A stretch of DNA of 64,000 nt. Source: Thermodesulfobacteriota bacterium (GTDB taxonomy: Bacteria; Desulfobacterota_D; UBA1144; Nemesobacterales; UBA2774). Position numbers and translations under genes: made by a program. A model generated the notes under the pieces. That model was not told the origin of the DNA and did not search any database. It saw only the letters and a list, made by a program, of their open reading frames with translations. The stretch lies in assembly GCA_963422265.1 (NCBI GenBank), contig OY729416.1:960001-1024000 (forward strand), given 5' to 3'. This document shows, in pieces, positions 1 through 38,058 of the stretch (position 1 is the first letter of the stretch; each line of letters opens with the position of its first letter).

Positions 1-1990
1 TTACGTTCGCTACACTTGCTGTAGCAGCAGAGGTGAGGGATTCCGATGTCCCACCAGCGTCCGTCCAACTCACTACTACTGTGATCACAGAACCGACGTC
101 CGCCTGTGTCAGAATGTAGGTGCTACTGGTCGCCCCGCTGATGTCAGTCCCACCCCGCTTCCATTGATAGCTGAACGTCAGATTACTCGGACCGTCTGGG
201 TCAACAATCGTGCTGGTATCCGCGGTCAGTGTCTGGCCCTGGGTTGCCGTCCCCGTAATGGTTACCGCACCAGTCGGCAAGTCGTTTACGTTCGCTACAC
301 TTGCTGTAGCAGCAGAGGTGAGGGTCTCCGCAGTGCCGCCCCCGTCAGTCCAGCTCACAGTGACGGTGATTGCCGCCCCGACGTCCGCCTGTGTCAGAAT
401 GTAGGTGCTACTGGTCGCCCCGCTGATGTCAGTCCCACCCCGCTTCCATTGATAGCTGAACGTCAGATTACTCGGGCCGTCTGGATCAACGATCGTGCTG
501 GTATCCGCGGTCAGTGTCTGGCCCTGGGTCGCCGTGCCGGTGATGGTGACTGCACCAGTCGGCGAGTCGTTTACGTTCGCTACACTTGCTGTAGCAGCAG
601 AGGTAAGAGTCTCCACTGTACTACCGCTGTCCGTCCAACTCACGGTGACGGTGATGACAGACCCGACGTCTGCCTGTGTCAGAACGTAGGTGCTACTGGT
701 CGCCCCACTGATGTCAGTCCCACCTCGCTTCCACTGATAGCTGAACGTCAGACTACTCGGACCGTCAGGGTCGGAGATGCCGGAGGTATCCGCGGTCAGT
801 GTCTGGCCCTGGTTTGGGGTGCCGGTGATGGTGACGCTGCCGGTCGGTGGGTCGTTAGCGTTGGTTACGCTCGCTGTCGCAGTCGAGGTAAGAGTTTCGG
901 CAGCACCGCCGCTGTCGGTCCAGCTCACTACTACTGTGATCGCAGAACCTACGTCTGCCTGTTTCAGAACGTAGGTGTTACTGGTCGCCCCACTGATGTC
1001 AGTCCCACCTCGCTTCCATTGGTAGCTGAAGGTCAGACTGCTCGGGCCGTCAGGGTCGGAGACGCCGGAGGTGTCCGCAGTCAGTGTCTGGCCCTGGGTC
1101 GCCGTGCCGGTGATGGTTACCGCACCAGTCGGCGGATCGTTAGCGTTGGTTACACTTGCTGTCGCAACAGAGGTGAGAGATTCCGCCGTGCCGCCCCCGT
1201 CGGTCCAACTCACTACTACTGTGATCGCAGAACCTACGTCCGCCTGTGTCAGAACGTAGGTGTTACTGGTCGCCCCACTGATGTCAGTCCCACCTCGCTT
1301 CCATTGGTAGCTAAATACCAAATTACTCGGCCCGTCCGGGTCGGAGATCGCGCTGGTCACCGCGGTCAGTGTCTGGCCCTGGGTCGCCGTCCCGGTGATG
1401 GTTACCGAACCCGTCGGCGAGTCGTTTAGGTTCGCTACGTTCGCTGTCGCCGCCGAGGTGAGGGTCTCCACGATGCTGCCGCTGTCCGTCCAACTCACTA
1501 CTACTGTGATGACAGAACCTACGTCCGCCTGTTTCAGAACGTAGGTTCTACTGGTCGCCCCGCTGATGTCAGTCCCACCTCGCTTCCATTGGTAGCTGAA
1601 GGTTAGACTGGCCGGGCCGTCCGGGTCGGAGATCGCGCTGGTCACCGCGGTCAGTGTCTGGCCCTGGGTCGCCGTCCCGGTGATGGTGACTGCCCCGGTC
1701 GGTGAGTCGTTTAGGTTCGCTACGTTCGCGGTCGTAGCAGAGGTAAGAGTTTCGGCAGTGCCGCCATCATCGGTCCAGCTCACGGTGACGCTGATGGCCG
1801 ACCCGACGTCGGCTTGCGTCAGGGTATACGACGCCTGGTTGGCGCCGCTGATGGCGGTGCCATCGCGTTTCCATTGGTAGGTGAAGGTTAGATTACTCGG
1901 ACCGTCAGGGTCAACGATCGTGCTGGTATCCGCTGTAAGCGTCTGCCCCTGCGTCATCGTACCCATGATGGTTACCAAACCAGTCAGGGT
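1..1990 (-). repeat. Tandem 285-bp (95-aa) intragenic repeats, ~7 copies visible
   Basis: Motif tgtgtcagaa(t/c)gtaggtg.tactggtcgcccc recurs at ~105, 390, 675, 960, 1245 and 1530, with a diverged copy at ~1815. Confidence 0.95.
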
Positions 1991-3605
1991 GACGACCACG
2001 AAATCGGACTCCACCCCCGTAACACTGCCGGCCACCGCACGGATGCGAAATCTATATATAGTGCCGTTGGTCAGACCCGTCACCGTGTGTGTGATCGGGT
2101 CCTTCCCACTCCCCGATATGTCAACCCAGTTGCCAGGGTTAGGCTCGGTATTGCCAGTCCACTGCTTATACTGATACTTGGTGATGACGGGATTGTTCGG
2201 ATCACTCCAGCTTAACGTTACTTCACCATCACCGGTACTGGCACTGAGGTCGGGCTTGCCTGGGACCACCATGGGGATCACTACTGCGGTGTAAGGGGAC
2301 TGCGACCCCGTAACACTGCCGGCCACCGCCCGAATACGGAAACTATACTCAACGCCGTTGGTCAGACCCGTCACCCCGTAGCGAACAGTGTCCTTATCAC
2401 TGGGATTAATGTCCACCCAATTACCCCAACTGCCTCGCTCGCCACCGCCCGTCCATTGCCTGATCTGATATTTGGTGATGTCGGCGTTATTTGGATTATT
2501 CCAGCTTAACGCTATTTCACCGTCACCTGCCACTACCTTGGGGCGGGTGGGACTTCTTGGAGGCGCGGCCACCGGCGTCGCCCGGACAACATTCGACTCC
2601 GTTACTACAACGCCGTTGGTCAACCCGCGAATACGGAAGCTATACGTCACGCTGTTGGTCAGACCCGTCACCCTGTATTCAATGAGCGTGGTTGATATGG
2701 TGGCTGAAATATCGCGCCAATCCCCCGTCTCGCTACTGCCCGTCCATTGCCTGATCTGGTACTTGGTGATGGTGGTATCCTTCTGATCAGACAGATTCGG
2801 ATCACGCCAGATCAGCTCGATTTGTTTGTACCGGGCCTGCGCACTGATTTTAGTAGGCGCTGCCTGTACCGGCGGTGCCGCTACCAGCTTGACAACGGTG
2901 ACAGTGGACGCCGGCCCATAGGCGGCGGGCCCATGGGCATAGTCGCCAGCCACGGCCCGAATGCGGAAGTAGTATTTGACGCCGGTGGGTAAACCGGTCA
3001 CTACGTGGCTGATGGTGTCTTTGTCGCTGCCCGGGATGTCGCCCCAGTCATTCCAGTCGCCGGTCTTGCTCCCGTCTTGTGCAGTCCGTACGTCGCGTCG
3101 CCGGATCTGGTATTTGATGATGTCAGTATTGTTGGGATTACTCCAGTTTAACGTTATTTGTCTGTCGCCGGGTACCGGTGGTACCACGGTGACGTTAGGC
3201 CTTGCGGTAGGCGCGGTCGGAATGGGCCCGGGGGTCACGGTAATAACGTCGGACGGCGCTCCTGTAACATTGCCGGCGGCTACCGCACGAATGCGGAAGT
3301 GATACTTAACACCGTCACGCAGACCCCGCACCGAGACGCTCTGCGCGCTAATAGTACCTGCAAAGTTAAACCAGCCAAACGGCTCGGTATCGCCATCAAT
3401 CCATTGCTTATACTGATACTTGGTGATGGCGGCATTATCCGGATTATCCCAGCGGAACTTTACCTGACGGATGCTCGCCACCGCCTTGAGACCAGTGAGC
3501 TTAGTGGGGGGGGGGGGCTACCTGCGCCTGAACAACGGCGGGCAGCAACAGAAACAGAGCGACAGCAACACCAAGTAAAGAGAGAGAAAGAAGACGTTGC
3601 ATCAT
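1..3605 (-). CDS. Large secreted repeat protein/adhesin (signal peptide, ~5 FN3-like domains, tandem 95-aa Ig-like repeats); 3' end outside window; frameshifted at C12 tract as assembled
   Basis: Manual translation from ATG 3605 gives MMQRLLSLSLLGVAVALFLLLPAVVQA|QVAPPPH*. Removing one C from the tract at 3506-3517 joins it to TKLTGLKAVASIRQVKFRWDNPDNAAITKYQYKQW (FN3-like). The repeats AVTITGTATQGQTLTADTS..FSYQWKRGGTDISGATSSTY.LTQADVG are in that same frame. The track lists no closed minus ORF here, consistent with a frame running off the window. Confidence 0.85.
3506..3517 (-). repeat. C12 homopolymer (coding strand) just after the signal peptide
   Basis: 12 G on the + strand; C11 or C14 restores the frame. 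Confidence 0.9.
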
Positions 3606-3614
3606 ATCTCTTTC

Positions 3615-3635
3615 GGGGGGGGGGGGGGGGGGGGG
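3615..3635 (-). repeat. C21 homopolymer 9 nt upstream of the adhesin start codon
   Basis: 21 G on the + strand. Confidence 0.9.
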
Positions 3636-3803
3636 TAACTTTTATAATCATAATACCTTTCACTTTAATAACTTTCTAATGTCTTTGTCAACAGGACACC
3701 CCTTTTCTAAAGGAGGAAACAAATGGGGTGCATGACCGGACTTTAACTAATGACGTGGTTTTAGCAAAGAACGGAGTGATAACTCGTTCTACAACCCCAT
3801 TTC

Positions 3804-3831
3804 TGGATTCCCGCCCCCGAGCGGGAATGAC
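3804..3831. repeat. REP-like palindrome
   Basis: Intergenic 8-bp stem attcccgc-ccccga-gcgggaat. Confidence 0.55.
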
Positions 3832-3889
3832 GGATGGGGGAATAGATACCTGTTCAAGGTAGTAATGACAAAGGACGCGACCCTACGCA

Positions 3890-4669
3890 TCACATAACAG
3901 GCTTAATCGCTGAGAAAAATATACGTTGGTAAATATAGAAGATTGGACTTTTGGGATATAACTTGCGAAGTTCCTCACGGTATCTATCTACAAATTTCTC
4001 ATGTAACTCATCGGGCAAACGCTCAAAGTAAGGTAAAAAGGCAGTGCCTGAAAGCCAGTCTATTATCGAATCAACGTCTTTAAGAACGTGAATATAAACC
4101 TTTTCAAATACGTCTATATTCGTGGCTTGGCACTCATACAGCAATCTAGCATACTGCCCTGTAGATAGCACGGACAAACCCCTCTGCCAACCATCTAAAG
4201 CCCCCTTATAAGGCTTTTCATTAGCAACTTGAGCAATTAACCTTTGGGTTGGATGGTTATGATTAGCGGGAAGCTGCACTGCAATCTGCCCCCCACTATG
4301 AAGTAATGAAAACAGCCTTGGTATTAACTCGTTATGGTTTTCCACCCATTGTATCGCCGCGTTTGAGAATATCAGATCCCACCGACCTGATAACTCTTGA
4401 ATTGAAAGCAACTTAAAATCAAGCCCGCGGTGCTTTCTCTCGCTCGCCCCCTCAAGCATGTTAGGGGAGGTATCAATGCCAAGCACCTTGCTATTGGGGA
4501 GTATATTTGAAACCAATTCGGTCAACTCGCCAGTGCCGCAGCCTAAATCTATCGCGTTTAAACCTTCTCTGATCAAGATTAGGTTAATCAAGTCTTGAAA
4601 AGGCGCGAACCGCTCTTTCTGAAATTTATGATACAATGCAGGATTCCATGACATTTGACTCTGCGACAT
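3890..4669 (-). CDS. tam: Trans-aconitate 2-methyltransferase-like SAM methyltransferase
   Basis: WNPALY..F..ER.APF.DL, DLGCGTG and DLIFSNAAIQWV..H motifs. Confidence 0.8.
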   Translation of the reverse strand: MSQSQMSWNPALYHKFQKERFAPFQDLINLILIREGLNAIDLGCGTGELTELVSNILPNSKVLGIDTSPNMLEGASERKHRGLDFKLLSIQELSGRWDLIFSNAAIQWVENHNELIPRLFSLLHSGGQIAVQLPANHNHPTQRLIAQVANEKPYKGALDGWQRGLSVLSTGQYARLLYECQATNIDVFEKVYIHVLKDVDSIIDWLSGTAFLPYFERLPDELHEKFVDRYREELRKLYPKSPIFYIYQRIFFSAIKPVM

Positions 4670-26009: not shown

Positions 26010-27283
<1,274 letters not shown>

Positions 27284-28640: not shown

Positions 28641-31418
28641 TTATATTAACCGCTCAAGCACGTCCCTTATCTCTCCTGGATGCCTTACCACGTCGAACCT
28701 CCACTGTCCAAAACCGCCGTGAGCACTTACGGCTTTGACCCACTCTTTCATATATTCATGCTTTGCATCGTCCGCGTTGGTCTGCTGCCCTTTTGTTTCA
28801 AGCACAAGAAAGTCGCCATTTGCCAGTCGGATGAGAAAATCGGGACGGTATCTTCTGACCACGCCATTGTAAATATAAAGAACGTCAAAACCTAGATGAT
28901 CGTTTTTGACCCATGCAGCAACCGCTTCATTGTTATCTAGCTGAAAAGAGTCGGAAGATTCCCACGGGCTGTCAAATACGCAATAGTTGATATGGCTTTT
29001 TTTCGTCCATTCGCAAGGTTTTCCCGTTCCCCAAGGACGCATATCGCCAGTAGATCTAATAGGGTGGCCAGTATCAAAAATAATTTCCATTTTCTCAGTG
29101 TTGTTAAACTCTATAGCACGCCAAAAATGATTGATAACTTTCGACATGTTTAACTTTATTACAAGCTGTCTCCTCCTTTTATCTCTATTGAAAAGCTCAG
29201 GAGATATTTGAATTCTATCTGAATCTATATACTGCTCTGTGAGGCGTACAAGTTCCGCCATCAGCACGGACGGAGAAGCCTGCCAAGTAGGTTTCATCTT
29301 TTGCCAGATGGATTGAGCCGCTTTGAAAATAGCCGTCTGTTTGCGCAGCCTCTTCATCAACTCTTCAACGTCTATGTCCTTGATTTTGGAAACGTCTGGA
29401 TTATTATCAATTGTTGGAGCAATTTCTACTATTTGCACAGTTTTTGAGGCATTAAGTTCTAACGACCTGACCTTACTCCAATCGACGGAAAGCTCCGGCT
29501 TGTATGTCCTATCTATTCTTATGACGTTGGGCCATTTGATGAAGAATTCTTTTTTCTCTTCAAAGGGTTTGACAACTATTTTAGGCGACGGAGGTGGTGC
29601 ATCTACACCGCCCTCCTCGTGAGGAAGAAAACTGAACGGCACGCCGAATACGTTGACGTATTCCGCATCAAATAGTCCAGTATTTTCGTTAATTTCATAA
29701 GAGGCGCGTCTGAGACCGCGCCCGACTACCTGTTCACAGAGAAGTTGACTTGTGAAGGCACGCAATCCCATGATTTGTGTAACCGTTCGCGCGTCCCAAC
29801 CTTCGGACAACATCCCAACGGAGATAACGTTCTGTATCTTTTCTCCCAGCTCACCGAGTTGTCCAACCGTATTGACTTGCTTTCTGAGTATCTCGGACTG
29901 CTCTTTCTGCGTAATTTTTTGTCCTTTGGTCCCTTCACTATCCGCTGACTTCACCGCTTGTTGTAGCTCCGGTTCATTTTGCTCAGCCTGTTTCAATACT
30001 TTTGAGTCTATGTGCAAAATGCCTTCGGGGGCGCACAGCGAGTCAACCATTATGTCCTTGTTGTCAAACGCGTGCTTGATCCTAGCCGCCGTTTCAGTGC
30101 GGTTGGCAACCGTAATTATCACTGGAGGGGTTTCACGCCCGTCCCAATTCTCTTTTGTTCTTTGCCAGTCCGAACCCAACAAAGCGTAGGCGTTTATTAC
30201 AAGATCGGGTAACGGCTCGTGAGTTTCCGCCCTGCGGTTTAGATCGTCTTTGACTTCGGGGTCGTTGTAAATGTGGTAGAGGCGGGATTTATAGGTTGTG
30301 GCGTCCGGCGCGGCGTCATCGCGCACAACGATGCGCGGCGTTTTGACGAGACCTGATTCAATGGCGTCATTTAGTCCAAAGTCGCTGACGGTCCATCCAA
30401 ACAACGCTTCTTCTGACGTTTTCCTTCCACTCGGCACAAAAGGGGTGGCGGAAAAATCAAAACAGTTCAAAATCCCCCGCGTTTTATGTATGCGGTCAAG
30501 CCCGCCAATCCACTTCGTAGCTTCTTCTATTTCCTCTTTTTTAACGCCTTTTATCTTTGACCCGGCGGGAACGCGCCAAGCATGATGCGCCTCGTCATTG
30601 ATAACAACCAGCTTATGGGAGGTTGCCATATCCCCTAACACTTCACGGACATATGCTTCATCACTTTTTGCACCTCGTTTATCAACACCTTTCTTCTTTC
30701 TTATTCTTTCCTCAGTTTCCCAATTTAGGATGTGCCAGTTTCGTATAAGAATCTTTGCCTGTAAGAGCTTCTCTCTCAAAGACAGCGGGACAACGCCAAA
30801 TTCGTCGTAGTAGCTTGTTTTTGAAGGGATAAGGACGGAAAGGCGTTCCCTGACCGTGAGATTGGGGGCTACAATAAAAATATTCTGAGAAAAACGCCCG
30901 TCCCTTGGGTAGGTTGCGCGGTTAATTGCCTGCCACACAATCAGCATCGCCATAACAACGGTTTTCCCTGTTCCAGTGGCGAGTTTGCAGCACAAGCGGC
31001 GAAACTCTCCTCCGTCAGTTGGAATATCCATACCCGCCTTTTCGGAATCAGGAGATTCAATAAGCCATATCAGCGTTTCAATCGCCTCTATCTGGCAGAA
31101 GAAAAACGGATAACCCCTCTGCTCGTTATCTTTCCAGTGTTCAAGCAGTGTTTTTGTAATGCCGGTAATTCCCGGGTAGCCCGCGTCGCGCCAAGCGTCA
31201 ACGCGCTGGCGTATTTGATTTACAAGCGGCAGTTCAACAAAGACTCCCCAATCCTGATAGGGATTCACCGTAGGATCGGCAATCATATACCCAGCCTTGC
31301 GACGCCCTTGTTTAAGCTCAAGAGGCCTTCCTTCCTCAACAAATTGCCAGTGTTTGGAAGGTTCAGTATATGGGGAGTTGATGATGAGGGTGGAATGGTG
31401 GTAGTTGTCTTTCTTCAT
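28641..31418 (-). CDS. res: Type III restriction endonuclease Res subunit (helicase plus PD-(D/E)xK nuclease)
   Basis: FFCQIEAIET, LATGTGKT, INDEAHH, SATP, MLSEGWD, EQVVGRGLR, YRPDFL...LETKG. Confidence 0.93.
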   Translation of the reverse strand: MKKDNYHHSTLIINSPYTEPSKHWQFVEEGRPLELKQGRRKAGYMIADPTVNPYQDWGVFVELPLVNQIRQRVDAWRDAGYPGITGITKTLLEHWKDNEQRGYPFFFCQIEAIETLIWLIESPDSEKAGMDIPTDGGEFRRLCCKLATGTGKTVVMAMLIVWQAINRATYPRDGRFSQNIFIVAPNLTVRERLSVLIPSKTSYYDEFGVVPLSLREKLLQAKILIRNWHILNWETEERIRKKKGVDKRGAKSDEAYVREVLGDMATSHKLVVINDEAHHAWRVPAGSKIKGVKKEEIEEATKWIGGLDRIHKTRGILNCFDFSATPFVPSGRKTSEEALFGWTVSDFGLNDAIESGLVKTPRIVVRDDAAPDATTYKSRLYHIYNDPEVKDDLNRRAETHEPLPDLVINAYALLGSDWQRTKENWDGRETPPVIITVANRTETAARIKHAFDNKDIMVDSLCAPEGILHIDSKVLKQAEQNEPELQQAVKSADSEGTKGQKITQKEQSEILRKQVNTVGQLGELGEKIQNVISVGMLSEGWDARTVTQIMGLRAFTSQLLCEQVVGRGLRRASYEINENTGLFDAEYVNVFGVPFSFLPHEEGGVDAPPPSPKIVVKPFEEKKEFFIKWPNVIRIDRTYKPELSVDWSKVRSLELNASKTVQIVEIAPTIDNNPDVSKIKDIDVEELMKRLRKQTAIFKAAQSIWQKMKPTWQASPSVLMAELVRLTEQYIDSDRIQISPELFNRDKRRRQLVIKLNMSKVINHFWRAIEFNNTEKMEIIFDTGHPIRSTGDMRPWGTGKPCEWTKKSHINYCVFDSPWESSDSFQLDNNEAVAAWVKNDHLGFDVLYIYNGVVRRYRPDFLIRLANGDFLVLETKGQQTNADDAKHEYMKEWVKAVSAHGGFGQWRFDVVRHPGEIRDVLERLI

Positions 31419-31424
31419 CAGAAT

Positions 31425-31898
31425 TTACGCTCGGCCTTTTACTTCACTCCACGACAACGACTTATCACATTTAACGTGTGTAATTCTCGCTTTTTTGCCA
31501 TTATAACGTATTTTAATCTTCTGAAATTCCCTGCTGGACTTTCCGTGTCCGAGACTTTGAGAGACTAATACCGGATAACACATAAATTGTTTGTTGTGGT
31601 GCTTCTTAAAAAAGTCAATCCCCCCATTCAACTGTTTTTTCACTTCACTCGGCTTCACCCACTTACTTTTAAACTCTACAGGAAGAAGAAATATAGAAGC
31701 GCCCTCCTTAACTACAATTATGTAGTCGCACCTCTTACTTTTAATTTGAGCTAGTTCTTGTTCGGTAACGCGATCAATATCCAGAATAACCTTTTCGCTT
31801 GGAAAGGCATCCAGATTGAGCTTGCATTCCTGTTTTTTGCAAGAGTTGCAGGTGCATTCACCAAATTTGTTTTTCAGGTAGGAGACAATGGAACTCAT
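31425..31898 (-). CDS. Hypothetical protein, possible PD-(D/E)xK nuclease fold, partner of the AAA ATPase
   Basis: RCDYII.......LPVEFKS...VKKQL; ATGA overlap with the ATPase. Confidence 0.6.
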   Translation of the reverse strand: MSSIVSYLKNKFGECTCNSCKKQECKLNLDAFPSEKVILDIDRVTEQELAQIKSKRCDYIIVVKEGASIFLLPVEFKSKWVKPSEVKKQLNGGIDFFKKHHNKQFMCYPVLVSQSLGHGKSSREFQKIKIRYNGKKARITHVKCDKSLSWSEVKGRA

Positions 31899-33355
31899 CC
31901 TTGATGTTCTATATTATCAAGTTTCTCCAAAATCCCTATGCTTTCGTTGTATAAATCTGAAGAGACCTCGTCGTGGTCCTCAGAGAATAGACCGTTTTCC
32001 TTGTCAAAATGCAGTCTCTCAACAATCGTTCCTTCTTCTCGTTGATTAAATACGTAGGCACTAACTTCTTCCTCTTCCAATTTCGTTAATTTGCTACCGT
32101 GTTTGGTTGCCGTCAATTTTGAAGAGCGAACATGGTTCGCAAGTTGATCCAGAAAATAGTCGCTGTGCGTTGTTACCATAACCCGAACGCCTGCACGGAC
32201 TAAACTAACAACGGTTCTCGCGATGCCTCTTTGGGCTTCAGGATGTAGGTGCGCTTCTGGTTCTTCAATAATCAGCAAATCCCCTTTCTTTACTTTGTAT
32301 CTAAGAAAGAGAACAACGGGAGCTAGTTCTGAAACCATCGATGAGGAATGCACCAATGGAACTTTAAGTGTTTTCTGCTTATATGAAAATTGCGGATATT
32401 GGGTCGCTTCTGAAACTTCTGTTTTAATGGAACCATGAAGTATTTTTTTTTCTATCTCGTCCGCCACTGCTGCCACATCGGGATCAAGAATGTGCGAAGT
32501 ATCTATATGTATAATTTCTTCTAAAAAGTCAGATACAATCCCCCTCAAAGGAGGAGAAGTAAGTTGTGATGGGAGAGCAGTTTGTTTTATAAGCGTTCTG
32601 GTTATAAACTGTTGGGTTTCCACAAGTCCGGTCCTTCCCGCTGGTAGGCAGAAAGGTTTTGCCTGAGTGATAGAACTAAAAATCTCTTCTGATATCTGTT
32701 CAAGGAGCTGACATAGTTTTCTTTCAATTTCTCTTTCGGAACGCATGTCTCTCGGTAAATCTCTCAACCTTATTTCAGAGCTACTCAGATAGTTCTTGTT
32801 CACATGGGGAGTTAAGTCATTTGAATTAAGCGTAAGCGTAAAACCTTGTTCATCGTTTTCCATCTCAAGGCTAAACTTATCACTCAAGAAATTAAGATTG
32901 AATTTATCACTCAAGAGACTTTTCCCGTGATAAATGCCCATGCAACGAGAAATCTCTATGTGGAACTTATAATTTACTGCCATTTTTATCCCTTCCTTGG
33001 TCCAGCTTTTAATCCCTTCAGGCAAATCCGACAATTTGACGCTTTTTATATCTCCTTTTAACAACTTTATTAGCCAATTATCTATATTTTCGGGTGCAAT
33101 CCCAACTTCTGTTTCTATACTTATAGTTTCTACTAATCCTTCCCCTATTGGACTACAACCACATATAAATAAGGGGAGAAAATTGAGATTCTCAAAAGAA
33201 TGAAACAAAGAATAAATAAGCACTGCAAGATACGACTTGCCCGTATTGCTTGGACCAATAAAAACCGTCAGCGGACAAAGCTCAATATCTATTGCCTCCT
33301 TAATGGGTCCGTAATTCCTAACAGAAATTTTCACGTTGCTTTTTGGCGTTTCCAT
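31895..33355 (-). CDS. ABC-type AAA ATPase (AAA_15/AAA_21-like)
   Basis: NYGPIK, LTVFIGPSNTGKS, PAGRTG, SSSMVSELAP, IIEEPEAHLHP, TTHSDY. Confidence 0.92.
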   Translation of the reverse strand: METPKSNVKISVRNYGPIKEAIDIELCPLTVFIGPSNTGKSYLAVLIYSLFHSFENLNFLPLFICGCSPIGEGLVETISIETEVGIAPENIDNWLIKLLKGDIKSVKLSDLPEGIKSWTKEGIKMAVNYKFHIEISRCMGIYHGKSLLSDKFNLNFLSDKFSLEMENDEQGFTLTLNSNDLTPHVNKNYLSSSEIRLRDLPRDMRSEREIERKLCQLLEQISEEIFSSITQAKPFCLPAGRTGLVETQQFITRTLIKQTALPSQLTSPPLRGIVSDFLEEIIHIDTSHILDPDVAAVADEIEKKILHGSIKTEVSEATQYPQFSYKQKTLKVPLVHSSSMVSELAPVVLFLRYKVKKGDLLIIEEPEAHLHPEAQRGIARTVVSLVRAGVRVMVTTHSDYFLDQLANHVRSSKLTATKHGSKLTKLEEEEVSAYVFNQREEGTIVERLHFDKENGLFSEDHDEVSSDLYNESIGILEKLDNIEHQG

Positions 33356-33398
33356 AATTCTATCTCTCCGACTACGTTACCTCAAACATACTCAAACT

Positions 33399-34121
33399 CT
33401 AGTGCATAGTAACGTATCTTTCAATGTTTTTTGCAATAGGATCCCTTGACGCAATGGAACTGACTTGAGACCCTCCAATATTTGCATCCATTAACCTGCT
33501 CAAGTGTCTAGGGGGAAGTTCTTCCTGGTCATTGAAAATAAGCAATATTGGTGTTTTACTATTATGAAGCAAAAGATGTTGTAAGGTTATAGTGACCAAT
33601 TTCGCTTTGTCCGCACCTAGAATGCCAAATAGAAACAGGAGTGTTTTCTCTTCGTTCTGTAATGAATAGTCAATAACGTAATTATCGGCGTTTTCTAAAT
33701 CCGGAACTACATAATCTTTTTCTAATTGGAGAATAGGGTGCTTACTGATAATTTGATTCAGTAATTCTTCCAAATCTTTGTAAAAAGTTACTTCGGGACG
33801 ATCTCTGTTGAGGTAGGACAAATCATAAACTTGGCTCAATGCTTGTCCTAAACGAAATATACCATCAGAAATTCTATCAACAGGGATTTCTACATAGAAG
33901 TTTCCATCTTCTTCTTGAATTTCATTTTCTCTTAGTATTTGCTCCATTAATTTTCCTTTATTGCCTTTGAAATACTTACTCACATCTGGAGTGTCATAGC
34001 TTAACCTCATAACAGTATTTGCTTCATCGCTAATGCGAATTTGTCCCTCGTCAACTTCCTTCAAATATATAGAGTAATGATCACCGTCCGGAGAAGAGAA
34101 CGGGGTCGAAATCATCAACAT
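33399..34121 (-). CDS. DUF1828-like protein (frame open upstream to ~34200; start possibly damaged)
   Basis: ISTPF..PDGD.YSIYL......IRISD.A.T.M.L; FY.D. Confidence 0.7.
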   Translation of the reverse strand: MLMISTPFSSPDGDHYSIYLKEVDEGQIRISDEANTVMRLSYDTPDVSKYFKGNKGKLMEQILRENEIQEEDGNFYVEIPVDRISDGIFRLGQALSQVYDLSYLNRDRPEVTFYKDLEELLNQIISKHPILQLEKDYVVPDLENADNYVIDYSLQNEEKTLLFLFGILGADKAKLVTITLQHLLLHNSKTPILLIFNDQEELPPRHLSRLMDANIGGSQVSSIASRDPIAKNIERYVTMH

Positions 34122-34139
34122 GCCATTTTTGCGCTCTAT

Positions 34140-34681
34140 CAGTTGAATATCGGTGCAGAGTTGTTGACGTAGTTCTTTCTGTAAGCTATCCTTGCTGATC
34201 TAAGTATCGCCCCGCAAAGATCGCTTTGCGACCTGGTGTGCCATTTTATATTGTAGTCTTCAAATAGACACTTGAGTGCACCATTTACATCGGAATATCA
34301 GTCAGTAACCTGTGTGTTTTCATGTTCGGGACTTCTATCCCTTCTGTTTATGCTTTCAGAAGTTGCATGATGGATATGACATTCATAATGTGCTATTTTG
34401 TTTTCGTGATTGGGTCCGTTGTATCGAGACAGCCTTATGTTTTCCTTGTCCAGTATCATCACAATGCCGCATGAGAAGTTTTCTGGGTCTCTTTCGTTGA
34501 GCCGAGCAAAAACTTTCAGTAACAACTCCAAGAAAACTTCTTGCAAGAAATTTGCTTCCTTAAATTCAACATCAAAACTCCATTGCTTGCTCTGCTTTCG
34601 AATTTTAGGCGGCGTCTGTTTTATGTTTATGATTTTAGGAGTATCCTTTATCGAACCTAAAATTTTTTCTGACATCTCCAC
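34140..34681 (-). pseudogene. His-rich hypothetical partner of the DUF1828-like gene, with probable premature stop at 34298-34300
   Basis: RYNG..H......HIH.AT motif; after TGA the same frame continues YSDVNGALKCLFEDYNIKW. Confidence 0.55.
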
Positions 34682-34683
34682 TA

Positions 34684-37600
34684 TTACACCTCCACCACCT
34701 TCAAACTCTCAATACCCCTATCATCTACTATTTTAACCGCGACTCTGCGGTTTTTGCCAAGCTCAAAAGGTAACGAGACTGTTCCCCTGTATGCCTCTAT
34801 CAATTCTTGGTCTATCTCGGCTTTCAGGTTTTTGGCAAGCCTTGTCCATCCACCTTTACTGTCCGCCATTGGAAAGAATACCTGACGTGGATAAAGACAT
34901 CTGCCATCATAGTCGGTGTCTAACATCCAGACTGCTATATTCTTTTCATCGCCGGATTCAAGTTTGCCGGTCTTGGTGTTGAAGTAGTCAAAGCCCCGGA
35001 TAGTGATTTGTGAATAGTTCTTAGTTGTCAGTTTTGAGTTTTGAGTCGGTAGTTTTAAGCCTTGAGCGATTTCTTCAAGCTGTAGAGTAACTTTGCTATC
35101 TCTTCGCAATTGCTCAGCAATTCCTTTAAGCTGGCTTCTCCCAGAAATCCCAAATTCCGAGAGATTATCAAAAAAGTCTCTAACTCGGCTAACGAACCCT
35201 GTGCTATCGAGAGAAATTGCAGAAATTCCTTTTTGCTTTGTCTCGCTTGTCCCTCCGCTATGTTTGCTGGGATAGAGGTTCCAGCCCTTCTCACTTGCGA
35301 GGTAATGCCATACTTCTCTTCCTTGGGAAAGGATGAGGTAGAGTAGTAAATCTTGTTGACTAAGCTGATTGACTTTCGCCAAACTATCAAGTCCCGATAA
35401 TTCCTTGAATACGTCATAACTTGCAATCTCCATATCACTAGAAACTAAAAACTCATAACTGCAGACTGCCACATCCGGTTGCCCGACCAGCCAGAAACTT
35501 TCATTGCTCGCGCGTTTTTTCTTCAGGTCATCGGTTTGCATATCGGCGTTCATTTGGACTTTGAGTAAAGTCATGCCAGTTTTTTCAGGCGACAACTCAT
35601 CAATGTCTTTTGCCGCTTCTGGATCAAATTGAAAGGCGGCAAAGATCAACATGCTCGGGCGCGGCATCAAAGTGCGCGCCTCTTCCCAGGCAAGCTCTAC
35701 CTGCCTCTGTTCAAGAGGGGCGTGTTCAGGACCGAATGAAATCACCGCGCGGTGCGGATTATACGCCGTTGCGGCTTCCTTGAATTCGTCCGATCCTGAA
35801 TCATCAGGTTTTGTTTCAGCTTCTGCGTGTAGCCAACGACAGGGGATGGGTTCGACGCGAGAGAAGGAAATATGCTGCCCGTTTTTGCCACGAATGCCGG
35901 TTTTCAGCAGTTCATCGCGCCATTCACTTTGGCGCAGGGTCTCGCCGGAGCGAGATAGAGAAGCGTCAGCTACTTCAACAGAAAGTCTTTCTCCCTCACC
36001 CTTAATCCCTCTCCCAGAAGGAGAGGGAAGCACATCGGAGATGGGTTGAACGGTTGGGGATGGAACAGCTTCTACGGTGAAAGGTCCGGTTACTCGGGCG
36101 CGTTTGTTGTCTTTCAGCGGCTGATCGTAAAGAGTTTCTGTTGCGGGAGGCTCATCATTGGCTATGGATTTCAAAGTAACGTGCGGAACTTTTTTATATT
36201 TAAAGCCACTGCCGACACCCTCATCAGGATACGCCAATTTGTAATAATCAAACGTAGCAGTCATCAACCTTTGCTTAGCGAGTGTAAGAGCCACGCGCGA
36301 GGTATCGCAGGTGATCCAGCGTCTGCCCCATTGCTCGGCAACGTAAGCAGTCGTGCCACTGCCACAGGTTGGGTCAAACACCAGATCGCCAGGGTCGGTG
36401 GTCATGAGGATGCAGCGTTCTATTACTTTAACTGCTGTTTGAACTACAAATATTTTTGTAGATTCGCCCCCTAACTTACTCCACATATTTGACAAAGGTG
36501 TTACTGGATAATCATCTAAGAAACGAACAAAACAAGGAAAAGATCCGCTTACTTCTATTCGGTTATGTTGCGTTAACCTGCTTAGCCCTTCAATGGTTGT
36601 TGTCCAATGAGTCCCTTTTCTGGGGTAATACTTTTTCCCTTCAAAACGAAAAACCTCTTCCTCTTTTCCAGATCCTTGACTACATATATCACTTAGCCTA
36701 TATAATCTTGAGCTTTCTGGGATAATACTAGGATTTTTTATTTCTTCCTTCGAGCATTTTCTACGTATGCCATCTGAATTTTCCAGTCGGTTGTACTGGT
36801 TAATACCAGCACCATGAGTTTTAGGCATAAACAATTGACGATATTTTCTTTTTGCGGACTTAATATCTTTTGAGTACCAAAGCAGAAAATCATAAATATT
36901 TCCGACAAAACTGGAAGCATCTTTTGCTGCTTGTGTAGTATATGTTATCTGTGCTACAAAATTCCTTACCCCAAACACCTCATCCATAATCTCCCGAATA
37001 TGATGCACGTTCTCGTCTGAAATCTGCACAAACACACTGCCGCTTTCCGTAAGCAATTCCCTTGCCAGCAGCAGACGGTCGCGCATATAGGAAAGGTAGG
37101 AGTGAATCCCCAGTTCCCAGGTATCACGGAATGCCTTGATAGTTTCAGGCTCTGTGGTCAAGTCTTCATCTTTACCGTCTTTGACATCACGCTTATTGAC
37201 AAATGGCTGAAAATTGCTGCCGTATTTGATGCCGTAGGGCGGGTCCATGTAAATGCACTGAACCCCCTGACTACCCCCCCCCCCCCCCCCCCCCCAATAT
37301 TTTCCTTTTGCAGCAGCGAGTTCATCACCAGTAGGGAGTCGCCCGCAACCAGTCGGTTTGTCCAGTTGTGGGAGTGTTGGTAAAACTCAATCTCCTGCCG
37401 AAGTGGAATTTCACGTTCTTGCTCAAAAAGAGGCAGTTGATTGCCGTCACCGTTTCCGTTGCGTTTTCTAACCGCTTCCACAATAGTGCGCGGGTCTATG
37501 CGGTCGTGGACGTGAAGCGATACGTTTGGCACTTCAAATGAAGTATGCTCGGCTTTCCCCGCCCATTGGAGTTGCGGGTCTAAGTGCGGATCGTAGGTAT

Positions 37601-37736
37601 AGGCCTTCTTGGCGCCCGTGTCGGGGTCAGTGTTTGGCGTTACAAGCCCTACCGGCGGGTTATTGACGCGCTGTTTGTCTCGATGTTCATAGGATTCAAT
37701 ATGTTGGCGTTTTGCCTTGGGCTTTTTCCGTGACAT
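34684..37736 (-). CDS. mod: Type III R-M DNA methyltransferase Mod, frameshifted at G22 tract as assembled; contains two in-frame insertions
   Basis: ORF 37158-37736 (YDPHLDPQLQWAGK, NRLVAGDSLLVMNSLL) joins ORF 34684-37248 (VQCIYMDPPYG, DPTCGSGTT, VAVKIVDDRGIE) if the tract is G20 or G23. Confidence 0.92.
35001..35470 (-). mobile_element. Intervening-sequence-like insert: four-helix-bundle gene between complementary 7-nt periodic arms, inside mod
   Basis: Sits between mod FWLVGQPDV and RGFDYFN; xAGTyyy heptads at 35001-35056 and ACT heptads at 35436-35468 on the + strand. Confidence 0.75.
35055..35417 (-). CDS. Four helix bundle protein (23S rRNA IVS protein family, Avd-related), nested in the +1 frame of mod
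   Basis: YRDLIVWRKS..L...IY.....FPKEEKYG.TSQ.RRA..SIPANIAEG..R.S.KEF..FL.IA.GSL.ELET; GGAG RBS upstream of ATG 35417. Confidence 0.92.
   Translation of the reverse strand: MTYSRNYRDLIVWRKSISLVNKIYYSTSSFPKEEKYGITSQVRRAGTSIPANIAEGQARQSKKEFLQFLSIAQGSLAELETFLIISRNLGFLGEASLKELLSNCEEIAKLLYSLKKSLKA
35993..36030. repeat. REP-like palindromic element translated in frame in mod (LPSPSGRGIKGEG)
   Basis: ccctcacccttaa-tccctctcc-cagaa-ggagaggga has a 9-bp perfect stem; related copies at ~37848 and ~39168. Confidence 0.8.
37274..37295 (-). repeat. G22 homopolymer (coding strand) in mod
   Basis: 22 C on the + strand, about 9 codons before DPPY. Confidence 0.92.
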
Positions 37737-37758
37737 TAAGCTCCTCCTGCTAATCCTT
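37670..37758 (-). repeat. 89-bp direct repeat, copy 1 (mod RBS plus first 22 codons)
   Basis: Identical by eye to 39006-39094. Confidence 0.92.
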
Positions 37759-37847
37759 TATGAAAAAAGGGGATTTGGCGTTTCACATCTTGGGTTCTCA
37801 TTGATTAGTAATAGCTTGAGACTGCTATATAAAGACACACACTGCTG

Positions 37848-37870
37848 CTCTCTCCCAGAGGGGAGAGGGA
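37848..37870. repeat. Partial copy of the REP-like palindrome
   Basis: ctctccc-agag-gggagag stem. Confidence 0.7.
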
Positions 37871-37896
37871 GAAGGAAGTTGCAATTTTTACACGAT

Positions 37897-38058
37897 TCAC
37901 GGCTTTTTTGGTGGAGGCGTGTTAGTCCGCTTTTCTCCGCCGACTTCTATTTTGGGCTGGTACCCAATAAGTTGACCTTTTATGGGCTGGTACCCTTGGG
38001 TCCGGTACCCTGACTCGTGCCGTTTCTGCTGTTCATCCACAGACTTCTTCTTTATCAT
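37897..38058 (-). CDS. 53-aa peptide with GYQP repeats (below the ORF-track cutoff)
   Basis: AAGGAG RBS; MIKKKSVDEQQKRHESGYRTQGYQPIKGQLIGYQPKIEVGGEKRTNTPPPKKP. Confidence 0.7.
   Translation of the reverse strand: MIKKKSVDEQQKRHESGYRTQGYQPIKGQLIGYQPKIEVGGEKRTNTPPPKKP

What the first reader, a model, noticed from the sequence alone, without database searches (positions are those of the whole stretch)
35001..35468. Complementary 7-nt periodic arms enclose the nested gene
Seen on the mRNA: 5' arm CAGTCTG CAGTTAT GAGTTTT TAGTTTC TAGTG and 3' arm AACTACC GACTCAA AACTCAA AACTGAC AACTAAG AACTATT CACAAAT CACTATC. AGT and ACT recur every 7 nt, and CAGTTATGAGTTTT matches the reverse complement of the other arm at 13 of 14 positions. 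The arms encode low-complexity VCSYEFLVSS and LPTQNSKLTTKNYSQ. Inference: a long-range stem looping out the gene, like rRNA IVS stems cut by RNase III. The heptad period could allow register slippage or binding by an oligomeric protein.
Basis: partly seen in the sequence, partly recalled or inferred. Interest (0 to 1): 0.7.

Follow-up and report, generated by a model that had tools for sequence, protein, structure and literature searches.

The report
Heptad-armed gene cassette inside a methylase
A small gene of the "23S rRNA intervening-sequence protein" family, bracketed by two complementary arms built from 7-base repeats, sits in frame inside a DNA methyltransferase gene, and the same armed cassette recurs across many bacterial phyla, linking a puzzling class of 7-base repeats to one protein family.

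Summary
AGT recurs every 7 nt five times before the nested gene and ACT six times after it. Nowhere else in 64 kb does this pattern occur (0 expected), and the arms pair with high probability in three fold contexts.

The nested gene is an intact PF05635/TIGR02436 four-helix-bundle protein, the family first found inside 23S rRNA intervening sequences. It lies in the turn of a beta-hairpin of a type III-like Mod methyltransferase, whose reading frame stays open through the whole insert.

In 79 related loci from many phyla, heptad-periodic flanks are the rule. 48 of 79 have significant, locus-specific arm complementarity. 21 of 82 cassettes are nested in longer ORFs, always with the host in frame +2 and mostly in restriction-modification genes. 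The other 61 sit in operon spacers, co-oriented with their neighbours.

On a tree of 186 Mod proteins the insert needs at least 15-20 gains or losses. The window's closest relatives lack it, so the cassette is mobile or recurrently acquired.

Cleavage of the stem by RNase III, as in rRNA, is plausible but untested. Splicing-like removal is contradicted by the open host frame. Binding of the arms by the pentameric protein is an attractive, untested idea.

The parts
35434..35468 (-). 5' arm: five heptads, each with AGT at the same position (CAGTCTG CAGTTAT GAGTTTT TAGTTTC TAGTGAT). Read in the host frame as VCSYEFLVSSD.
35469..35475 (-). Outer extension of the stem (GATGTGG, host codons for D-V-A). 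It pairs with 34999-35006.
   Evidence: pair probabilities 0.5-1.0
35428..35431 (-). GGAG, a likely ribosome-binding site 10 nt before the ATG of the nested gene. Purine-rich GGAG-like motifs sit at the same place in related cassettes.
   Evidence: read from sequence; function inferred
35055..35417 (-). Nested gene: 120-aa four-helix-bundle protein (23S rRNA IVS protein family) plus stop, in frame +1 relative to the host ORF. The ORF listing gives a longer GTG start at 35438.
   Evidence: PF05635 E 9.7e-41; NF008911 148.6 bits, cutoff 137; TIGR02436 134.5 bits, cutoff 24; all 20 columns invariant across the 50 aligned rows, the window's own row included; PDB 2GSC E 2e-23
34999..35054 (-). 3' arm. 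It starts directly after the stop codon. Six ACT heptads (35054-35013) are followed by two CAC heptads (35012-34999), which also encode the returning beta-strand SQITI of the host.
35014..35463 (-). Approximate extent of the insert relative to insert-free Mod homologues: about 150 codons in place of about 12 residues in the turn of the hairpin GQPDVxV-[EQIRKGENxGKW]-QVxVxGFDYFNTKTG.
34684..37248 (-). Host ORF: type III-like Mod DNA methyltransferase from motif DPPY onwards, open through the cassette.
   Evidence: PF01555 E 5e-30; PADLOC MTase_III E 1e-134
37158..37736 (-). N-terminal piece of the same Mod gene, thrown out of register by a 22-nt G run (37274-37295).

Best explanation
This is a selfish, probably mobile gene cassette of the same kind as the ORF-bearing intervening sequences of 23S rRNA, but lodged in a protein-coding gene.

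The unit consists of:
- about 5 heptads of the form AGTNNNN;
- a short spacer with a ribosome-binding site;
- a four-helix-bundle (IVS-protein/Avd-like) gene;
- about 5-6 complementary heptads NNNNACT, starting at the stop codon.

Shown:
- The arms are complementary, and this architecture is the rule for the family in many phyla.
- The cassette has replaced the turn of a surface beta-hairpin of a type III-like Mod methyltransferase.
- The Mod frame is held open through all about 150 inserted codons, while the nested protein is the more conserved reading. The stretch is therefore dual-coding.
- Presence or absence at exactly this site changes many times on the Mod tree.
- Elsewhere the cassette sits in operon spacers, co-oriented with the host genes.

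Inferred:
- The cassette has no promoter of its own and rides on host transcripts.
- In the transcript the arms pair and hold the host's flanks together at the base of a stem, as in rRNA. This limits damage to the host and offers RNase III a substrate that would release the nested mRNA.
- When ribosomes read through instead, Mod is made with an extra domain on a beta-ribbon stalk encoded by the arms.
- The nested protein starts at its own RBS in the +1 frame.
For: Identity of the nested gene.

The arms in the window.

The arms are family-wide. 79 elements with both flanks were examined. They come from 83 tblastn hits, 4 of which were dropped for short flanks.
- Mean lag-7 autocorrelation of the flanks is 0.44 upstream and 0.43 downstream, against 0.25-0.29 at the other lags.
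- 48 of 79 have arm complementarity z>4, and 53 of 79 have z>3.
- Matched arms score a mean of 32.2 against 15.4 for mismatched arms. A locus's own partner is the best of 79 in 33 loci and in the top 3 in 46.
- AG runs of 3 or more units at period 7 occur upstream in 51 of 79, against 2-6 of 79 at periods 5, 6, 8 and 9.
- 3 of 3 cultured-cyanobacterium plasmid loci show the same arms.

Nesting:
- 21 of 82 cassettes lie inside a long ORF, always in frame +2.
- Stops in frame +2 are 0 in all 21 nested cassettes. In the 61 free ones the mean is 5.16, and 1 of 61 has none.
- Of the 20 host ORFs scanned, 10 are PF01555 methylases, 5 are Eco57I/MmeI-type enzymes, 1 is LeuRS and 4 have no match.
- IVP-frame identity exceeds host-frame identity in 78 of 78 pairs (0.56 against 0.35).

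Insertion site. All 83 of 83 insert segments resemble the window's.

Gains and losses:
- Among 186 Mod proteins the insert state needs 20 changes, at least 15 of them forced by well-supported branches.
- The window lies in a 95%-supported set of 8 proteins of which 7 lack the insert.
- 97 of the 120 closest N-terminal relatives lack the insert.

Free cassettes: the upstream ORF is co-oriented in 48 of 55 and the downstream ORF in 42 of 58 (p 1e-8 and 9e-4).

No promoter-like or terminator-like site lies at the cassette.

Precedent: the Coxiella 23S IVS has 2-3 tandem heptamers before the ORF, a 28-bp terminal stem, and RNase III cuts within it (PMC4990558, passages).
Against: - No expression or cleavage data exist for this locus.
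- The whole-region fold is not more stable than shuffles (z -0.91).
- G.U-type mismatches do not significantly outnumber A.C-type ones in the arms (60 against 49, p 0.34; by locus 24 against 11 of 48). Selection on the sense RNA rather than on DNA is therefore not demonstrated.
- 26 of 79 loci show no significant arm pairing (z<3), and a few have the arm types in the reverse order (9-11 of 79; L008 and L011).
- Translating ribosomes would melt the stem in nested copies.
- The Mod gene here is out of frame at a G run, so the host may be off or decaying.
- Recurrence at one site could partly reflect survival of insertions only in a permissive loop. Other small inserts occur in the same loop.
- The sample of Mod proteins came from two searches, biased in opposite directions.
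Confidence: 0.7

Rival explanations
1. The arms act on DNA, not RNA. They are terminal inverted repeats, or single-strand hairpins, used by a recombinase or transposase supplied in trans, or by the nested protein itself, to move the cassette. RNA pairing is then a by-product.
For: - Arms and gene travel together. Cassettes of one clade share the unit type AGTTTNN but sit in unrelated contexts: WIN and L001 in a methylase, L003 between an amidohydrolase and an aldo-keto reductase gene, L005 after a POR gene.
- There are many gains or losses at one site.
- G.U-type mismatches show no significant excess over A.C-type.
Against: - No transposase or recombinase lies in the cassette or next to it.
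- No target-site duplication was seen at the window's junctions (read; not tested systematically).
- The one experimentally studied relative is processed at the RNA level (PMC4990558).
- This rival is not exclusive of the best explanation.
Confidence: 0.35
2. The heptads are binding sites for the nested protein itself. A ring of five subunits reads one AGUNNNN unit each on single-stranded RNA (or DNA), in competition with the stem. This would control the protein's own translation, the processing of the transcript, or the cassette's mobility.
For: - Two solved relatives have 5 chains per entry. PMC4990558 describes the Xanthomonas protein as a homopentameric toroid.
- The commonest long run of period-7 AG or CT is 5 units: 18 of 79 upstream and 16 of 79 downstream.
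- The AGT core is conserved while the other four bases vary.
- The arm orientation relative to the gene is biased: 51 of 79 against 9 of 79.
- From memory, not from a call: HutP binds UAG triplets spaced 7 nt apart and TRAP binds spaced GAG/UAG triplets. The DGR relative Avd is a nucleic-acid-binding pentamer.
Against: - Nothing here tests binding.
- Runs of 3, 4 and 6 units are also common.
- Some loci have heptads without AGT (for example L080).
- The match between unit type and protein clade is explained equally well by common descent.
Confidence: 0.3
3. The periodic arms exist for the host protein. They encode the two strands of a beta-ribbon that carries an acquired insertion domain, and their nucleotide complementarity is incidental.
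For: - The AlphaFold2 model of the host-frame C-terminal region puts the two arm-encoded peptides in long strands (76-87 and 224-241) flanking helices, with block pLDDT 82-92 for most of the insert.
- The host-frame pattern S-x-E-F/W-L-V-x-S recurs.
Against: - The same complementary heptad arms flank the 61 cassettes that lie between genes, where no host protein is encoded.
- The host-frame sequence of the insert is far less conserved than the nested frame (78 of 78 pairs).
Confidence: 0.03
4. The stem lets the ribosome or an RNA-processing step skip the insert (bypassing or splicing), so that Mod is made without it.
For: The arms bring the two host junctions together at the base of the stem.
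Against: Skipping would remove any need for an open host frame, yet frame +2 has no stop in 21 of 21 nested cassettes, against a mean of 5.16 stops in free ones. Nested arms also expand in 7-residue (21-nt) steps that preserve the frame.
Confidence: 0.03

Closest known systems
ORF-bearing intervening sequences (IVS) of 23S rRNA (Leptospira, Coxiella and others; PMC4990558 read in passages; Ralph & McClelland 1993 known only as cited there)
   Same: - Same protein family in the loop.
- Terminal inverted repeats that form a long stem.
- Tandem heptamers in front of the ORF, with variable copy number.
- Carried on a host transcript.
- Sporadic, horizontally spread distribution.
   Different: - The host is a protein-coding gene, not rRNA.
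- The insert is in frame and read through, so it is dual-coding.
- RNase III cutting is not shown here and would split an mRNA rather than a ribosomal RNA that stays assembled.
Bacterial heptanucleotide repeats: GGGAATC arrays of Xanthomonas, including 70-75 convergent pairs, and GGGGA(C/T)T of Nostoc (PMC4692102, passages); TAACTGA repeats of Beggiatoaceae and cyanobacteria (PMC4679880, passages); cyanobacterial STRR (recalled)
   Same: - Period 7, mostly about 4 units.
- Intergenic within operons, transcribed, and sometimes in inverted pairs.
- Units such as AGTAGGG/CCCTACT around the Nostoc edaphicum cassette resemble STRR-type units.
   Different: In the passages I read, those papers describe the repeats without a cargo gene and name no partner protein. 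A word search of them found no mention of 23S, S23 or four-helix terms. Here the repeats bracket one specific gene family.
Avd of diversity-generating retroelements
   Same: Related four-helix-bundle fold family (PF22296 E 1e-7). It is a pentamer that binds nucleic acid (recalled).
   Different: The Avd model scores 23.7 bits against a cutoff of 80. No reverse transcriptase domain appears in the window's ORFs, and no template/variable repeat pair was looked for.
In-frame palindromic mini-elements such as Rickettsia palindromic elements (recalled)
   Same: Small inverted-repeat elements inserted in frame into protein-coding genes and translated as surface insertions.
   Different: Those carry no gene of their own. 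This cassette encodes a conserved protein in a second frame.
Inteins and free-standing homing-endonuclease genes
   Same: A selfish insert at one conserved site of a host gene, with sporadic presence among close relatives.
   Different: No intein or endonuclease domain is found. The insert is not removed from the protein as far as sequence can tell, and the nested gene is out of frame with the host.

Membership tests
PF05635 / TIGR02436 four-helix-bundle (23S rRNA IVS) protein | Score above the curated cutoffs of the family models | tested here: met
   PF05635 138.7 bits (cutoff 33.8). TIGR02436 134.5 bits (cutoff 24) and NF008911 148.6 bits (cutoff 137).
PF05635 / TIGR02436 four-helix-bundle (23S rRNA IVS) protein | Homopentameric ring | not tested
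   Only by relatives: 2GSC and 2RLD each have 5 chains. No complex prediction was run.
23S rRNA intervening sequence (IVS) element | ORF of the S23p/IVP family enclosed by terminal inverted repeats that form a stem | tested here: met
   (z 4.3)
23S rRNA intervening sequence (IVS) element | Located in a 23S (or 16S) rRNA helix | tested here: not met
   It lies inside a PF01555 methylase ORF. No rRNA match in 34000-38000.
23S rRNA intervening sequence (IVS) element | Excised from the precursor by RNase III | not testable with these tools
   Needs RNA end mapping or an in vitro assay.
23S rRNA intervening sequence (IVS) element | Tandem heptamers ahead of the ORF (reported for Coxiella only) | tested here: met
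   Five units in the window. The published case is in PMC4990558.
DGR accessory protein Avd | Score above the cutoff of the Avd equivalog model, and a reverse transcriptase nearby | tested here: not met
   NF033474 23.7 bits against a cutoff of 80. No RT domain among 56 ORFs of the window scanned.
Autonomous IS or transposon | Encodes a transposase or recombinase between its inverted repeats | tested here: not met
   The only ORF with a family match is the 120-aa four-helix-bundle protein.
Autonomous IS or transposon | Target-site duplication | tested here: inconclusive
   None is evident at the window's junctions. There was no systematic test, and the boundaries of intergenic copies are fuzzy.
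Intein | In-frame insert with splicing blocks or a Hint domain | tested here: not met
   The host ORF matches only PF01555 in Pfam.
Overlapping (dual-coding) genes | Two long frames open over the same DNA, with evidence of selection on both | tested here: met
   Frame +2 is stop-free in 21 of 21 nested cassettes against 1 of 61 free ones. The nested frame is the more conserved in 78 of 78 pairs. Translation itself is not shown.
Phase-variable simple-sequence repeat (for the heptads) | Several exact tandem units prone to slippage | tested here: not met
   The longest exact lag-7 run in the window's arms is 10 positions, fewer than 3 exact units. The nested-versus-free difference is not significant (p 0.10). 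The separate 22-nt G run is another matter.

The most novel reading that the evidence does not exclude
The four-helix-bundle pentamer is the missing partner of the over-represented bacterial heptanucleotide repeats (STRR-, TAACTGA- and GGGAATC-type). Each subunit reads one AGUNNNN unit. Gene plus arms form a self-insulating mobile cassette that targets structured RNAs, operon spacers and one hairpin-coding site of restriction-modification genes. There it persists as a true dual-coding insert that may tune or hitch-hike on the defence system.
Probability: 0.25. Interest if true: 0.9.

Novelty: new variant of a known kind. Interest (0 to 1): 0.8.

Why it matters
- Heptanucleotide repeats have been noted as oddly abundant in bacteria, with no known partner or purpose. 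PMC4692102 and PMC4679880 both say so in the passages I read. Tying complementary heptad arrays to one widespread, structurally solved but functionally unknown protein family gives both puzzles a direct experiment: does the pentamer bind the repeats?
- The result extends the rRNA 'intervening sequence' from a ribosomal curiosity to a general cassette that also lives in mRNAs.
- It supplies a large natural set of bacterial same-strand overlapping genes. More than 80 distinct Mod proteins are read through the cassette.
- It shows that annotated 1000-residue 'methyltransferases' of this family hide a second gene.

Tried and rejected
- Rfam scan of 34000-38000 at E<=1: nothing at the arms, only three sub-threshold hits elsewhere.
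- PADLOC: no defence-system model matches the nested protein.
- Foldseek of the host-frame model against the PDB: no match with E<=0.001.
- Promoter and terminator scan: nothing at the cassette.
- G.U against A.C asymmetry, to tell RNA from DNA selection: not significant.
- Whether nested arms are less perfect than free ones, as selection against frameshifting slippage would predict: the trend is not significant (medians 7.5 against 10, p 0.10).
- Tandem Repeats Finder sees only 2.4 units in the 3' arm (35030-35046), because the units are imperfect. The periodic-core search was needed.
- Chance or low complexity as an explanation: rejected.
- DGR membership: rejected.
- Six literature searches found no paper that links this protein family to heptad arms in general or to nesting in restriction-modification genes. 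Only the single Coxiella case turned up. The library lacks most subscription journals, so this is not proof of absence.
- Not used: complex prediction, the protein-representative search, the protein atlas and supplementary files.
- Not searched: the metagenome and viral contig collections, which were closed. The one genome scan kept the best 80 of at least 596 confirmed matches.
Full report
**What is in the window.**

All coordinates here are on the minus strand. An 854-codon ORF (37248-34684) encodes a DNA methyltransferase. It matches PF01555 (E 5e-30) and the PADLOC type III MTase model (E 1e-134). It lies upstream of a BPTD_3080-family restriction endonuclease.

Inside it, in frame +1, lies a 120-codon ORF (ATG 35417, stop 35057-35055). 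This ORF is a full-length member of the 23S rRNA intervening-sequence protein, or 'four helix bundle', family:
- PF05635, E 9.7e-41;
- TIGR02436 and NF008911, both above their cutoffs;
- PDB 2GSC, E 2e-23;
- all 20 columns that are invariant across the 50 aligned rows, the window's own among them.

GGAG lies 10 nt before the ATG. The host frame has no stop anywhere in the insert, whereas the third frame has many.

Five heptads with AGT at a fixed position precede the nested gene (35468-34). Six heptads with ACT, plus two with CAC, follow its stop codon directly (35054-34999).

- The AGT-every-7 pattern has five matches in 64 kb, all in these arms, against 0.00 expected.
- The looser AG pattern also has five matches, all in the arms, against 0.16 expected.
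- The arms pair in the MFE and in the ensemble. 25.6-30.0 arm-arm pairs are expected in three contexts of 491-901 nt, with core pair probabilities above 0.9.
- The arm duplex is -24.7 kcal/mol, against -15.0 +/- 3.3 for shuffles; 5 of 500 shuffles are as low.
- The fold of the whole region is not special (z -0.91).

**The architecture is family-wide.**

A scan of one genome per species returned the 80 best of at least 596 confirmed matches, which make 79 distinct loci from many phyla. With the window there are 83 tblastn hits. 79 have both flanks, and 4 were dropped for short flanks.

- Mean flank autocorrelation peaks at lag 7 (0.44 upstream, 0.43 downstream) and at lag 14 (0.40, 0.39). Other lags give 0.25-0.29.
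- 48 of 79 have upstream-downstream complementarity with z>4; the window's z is 4.3.
- The heptad unit differs from locus to locus (AGTTTTC, AGTGGTT, CTAGGGG, TTAGCTG, GTAAATG and others). Each locus's own downstream arm is nevertheless the best partner among 79 in 33 loci, and in the top three in 46. This is locus-specific covariation.
- A core is shared. Runs of at least 3 AG at period 7 occur upstream in 51 of 79, against 2-6 of 79 at periods 5, 6, 8 and 9.
- The orientation is biased: CT runs of that kind occur upstream in only 9 of 79.
- The commonest long run is 5 units.
- Three plasmid loci of cultured cyanobacteria show the same arms. Nostoc edaphicum, for example, has AGTAGGG x8 upstream and CCCTACT x5 downstream.

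**Two kinds of home.**

Nested cassettes. 21 of 82 cassettes lie within a long same-strand ORF that stays open through them. The host is always in the nested gene's frame +2. Of the 20 host ORFs scanned, 10 are PF01555 methylases, 5 are Eco57I/MmeI-type enzymes, 1 is a leucyl-tRNA synthetase and 4 have no match. Two of those four (L012, L018) share the methylase junction sequence.

Frame +2 of the nested gene has no stop in 21 of 21 nested copies. In the 61 free copies it has a mean of 5.16 stops, and only 1 of 61 has none. Frame +1 is never open.

There is a simple reason why frame +2 is the cheap one (my reasoning). A stop there needs a T at the nested gene's wobble position before a codon starting AA, AG or GA. 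It can therefore be avoided by synonymous changes.

Among 13 methylase-nested copies the nested-frame protein is more conserved than the host-frame peptide in 78 of 78 pairs (0.56 against 0.35). The nested gene is thus the main constraint, and the host frame is mainly kept open.

Free cassettes. The 61 free cassettes sit in spacers of ordinary operons, for example nuoC-nuoD, nuoG-nuoH, PDH E1 alpha-beta, murD-ftsW and upstream of hisS. They are co-oriented with the neighbours: 48 of 55 upstream ORFs and 42 of 58 downstream ORFs.

**The site in Mod, and mobility.**

Insert-free homologues read GQPDVxV-EQIRKGENxGKW-QVxVxGFDYFNTKTG, a beta-hairpin. Insert-bearing ones replace the turn with 143-172 residues.

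The two searches sample the family differently.
- When searched with the C-terminal part, 111 of 119 other proteins carry the insert, read through in the host frame.
- When searched with the N-terminal 400 residues, 97 of 120 lack it, 19 are truncated or lack the motifs, 3 have other short inserts, and only the window's own protein has it.

The window's flanks are closer to insert-free proteins (about 82-86% identity) than to insert-bearing ones (about 69-74%), right up to the junctions.

On a tree built from the flanks only (186 proteins, 84 with the insert), the state needs 20 changes, at least 15 of them across well-supported branches. The window sits in a 95%-supported set of 8 proteins of which 7 are insert-free. 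All 83 other inserts resemble the window's.

In the tree of the nested proteins, the window falls in a 95%-supported set of 17 that mixes methylase-nested and free cassettes. Cassettes at the equivalent site of a second methylase subfamily fall in two separate groups.

Together this argues for repeated acquisition or loss at one site, that is, for a mobile cassette with a site preference. A caveat is that the same loop also tolerates other small inserts, so survival in a permissive loop contributes. The protein sample is also biased by the way it was gathered.

**How it probably works.**

Shown: the unit, its conservation, the dual coding, the co-orientation with host transcription, and the turnover.

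Inferred:
- The cassette depends on host transcripts. No promoter-like or terminator-like site lies at it.
- The arms pair in the RNA, so that the host's two flanks meet at the base of a stem. This is the arrangement that lets rRNA tolerate such inserts and that RNase III cuts.

In the published Coxiella IVS the stem is 28 bp, 2-3 tandem heptamers (GACAGAT) precede the ORF and vary in number among strains, and RNase III cuts at the first repeat (PMC4990558; abstract and passages).

RNA-level and DNA-level function of the arms could not be told apart: G.U-type mismatches number 60 and A.C-type 49 (p 0.34).

Removal of the insert before translation is contradicted by the open host frame, and by arm expansions in 7-residue (21-nt) steps in nested copies (P0127, P0133).

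An AlphaFold2 model of the host-frame C-terminal region, built on a 58-row alignment, has mean pLDDT 78. It places the arm-encoded peptides as long strands (76-87 and 224-241) that carry a helical insert, with low confidence at 141-170. No PDB fold matches it. The confidence may partly echo constraints that come from the other frame.

**Relation to what is known.**

The protein family, its rRNA-borne copies and its pentameric ring are known (PMC4990558 passages; PDB entries).

Abundant bacterial heptamer repeats are also known:
- convergent GGGAATC pairs in Xanthomonas and GGGGA(C/T)T in Nostoc (PMC4692102, passages);
- TAACTGA arrays in Beggiatoaceae and cyanobacteria, whose binding protein that author explicitly left open (PMC4679880, passages).

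In six searches I found no paper that joins the two, or that describes these cassettes in operon spacers or nested in restriction-modification genes. The library is incomplete, so this is a statement about my searches only.

The cassette fails one defining feature of an rRNA IVS, its location. I therefore file it as a new variant of that kind, not as a member.

**Verdict.**

The cleavage and protein-binding steps remain to be tested.

Noticed in passing
window 37274-37295 (also 27155-27189 and 3615-3635): A 22-nt G run (coding strand) splits the Mod gene. The upstream ORF 37736-37158 and the downstream ORF 37248-34684 are out of register, and 20 or 23 G would fuse them. Homologues have no such run at MAGKVQ. 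Two more long G runs lie in the window: 35 nt inside a glycosyltransferase ORF, and 21 nt. The cause could be phase variation or homopolymer assembly error.
   Followed up: partly
window 35992-36029 (-): A small hairpin (CCCTCTCC-TTCT-GGGAGAGG) is read through in Mod as PSPSGRGIKGEGE. It gives a weak Rfam whalefall-1 hit (19.2 bits, E 0.16). Homologue P0238 carries a DUF559 endonuclease gene at this very site, flanked by similar peptides. P0272 has the same peptide motif in the hairpin loop where the window has the cassette.
   Followed up: partly
proteins P0220, P0233, P0129, P0138 and others: Other members of this Mod family are annotated as single proteins that contain a Y1 (IS200-type) transposase domain, DDE transposase domains or DUF559+MTES_1575 endonuclease domains. 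This methylase family seems to collect in-frame selfish inserts at two or more sites.
   Followed up: no
window 28641-34681 (-): Several ORFs sit between the BPTD_3080-family endonuclease (28641-31418) and Mod: a PDC-M47B-like ORF (31425-31898), an AAA_15 ATPase resembling PD-T4-4_A/AriA/PDC-M47A (31895-33355), a DUF1828/PDC-M24B-like ORF (33399-34121) and an unassigned 127-aa ORF (34298-34681). This looks like defence cargo wedged into a type III-like R-M operon.
   Followed up: partly
L066 (Kapabacteria) 811-4623: One type IIG (MmeI/Eco57I-like) ORF carries both a four-helix-bundle cassette and a DUF559 endonuclease domain in frame.
   Followed up: no
L008 and L011, flanks of the cassette: The arm types are in reverse order or doubled: ACT-type heptads upstream, AGT-type directly after the stop, and further ACT arrays beyond. 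This suggests nested or compound cassettes.
   Followed up: no
proteins P0127, P0133: In nested copies the 3' arm is expanded by exact 7-residue repeats (for example NWPLKTK x2), that is, three heptads at a time, which preserves the host frame.
   Followed up: partly
window 1-1985: A 285-nt tandem repeat, 7 copies at 83% match, lies within a long minus-strand ORF with fibronectin-III/Ig-like domains that runs off the window.
   Followed up: no
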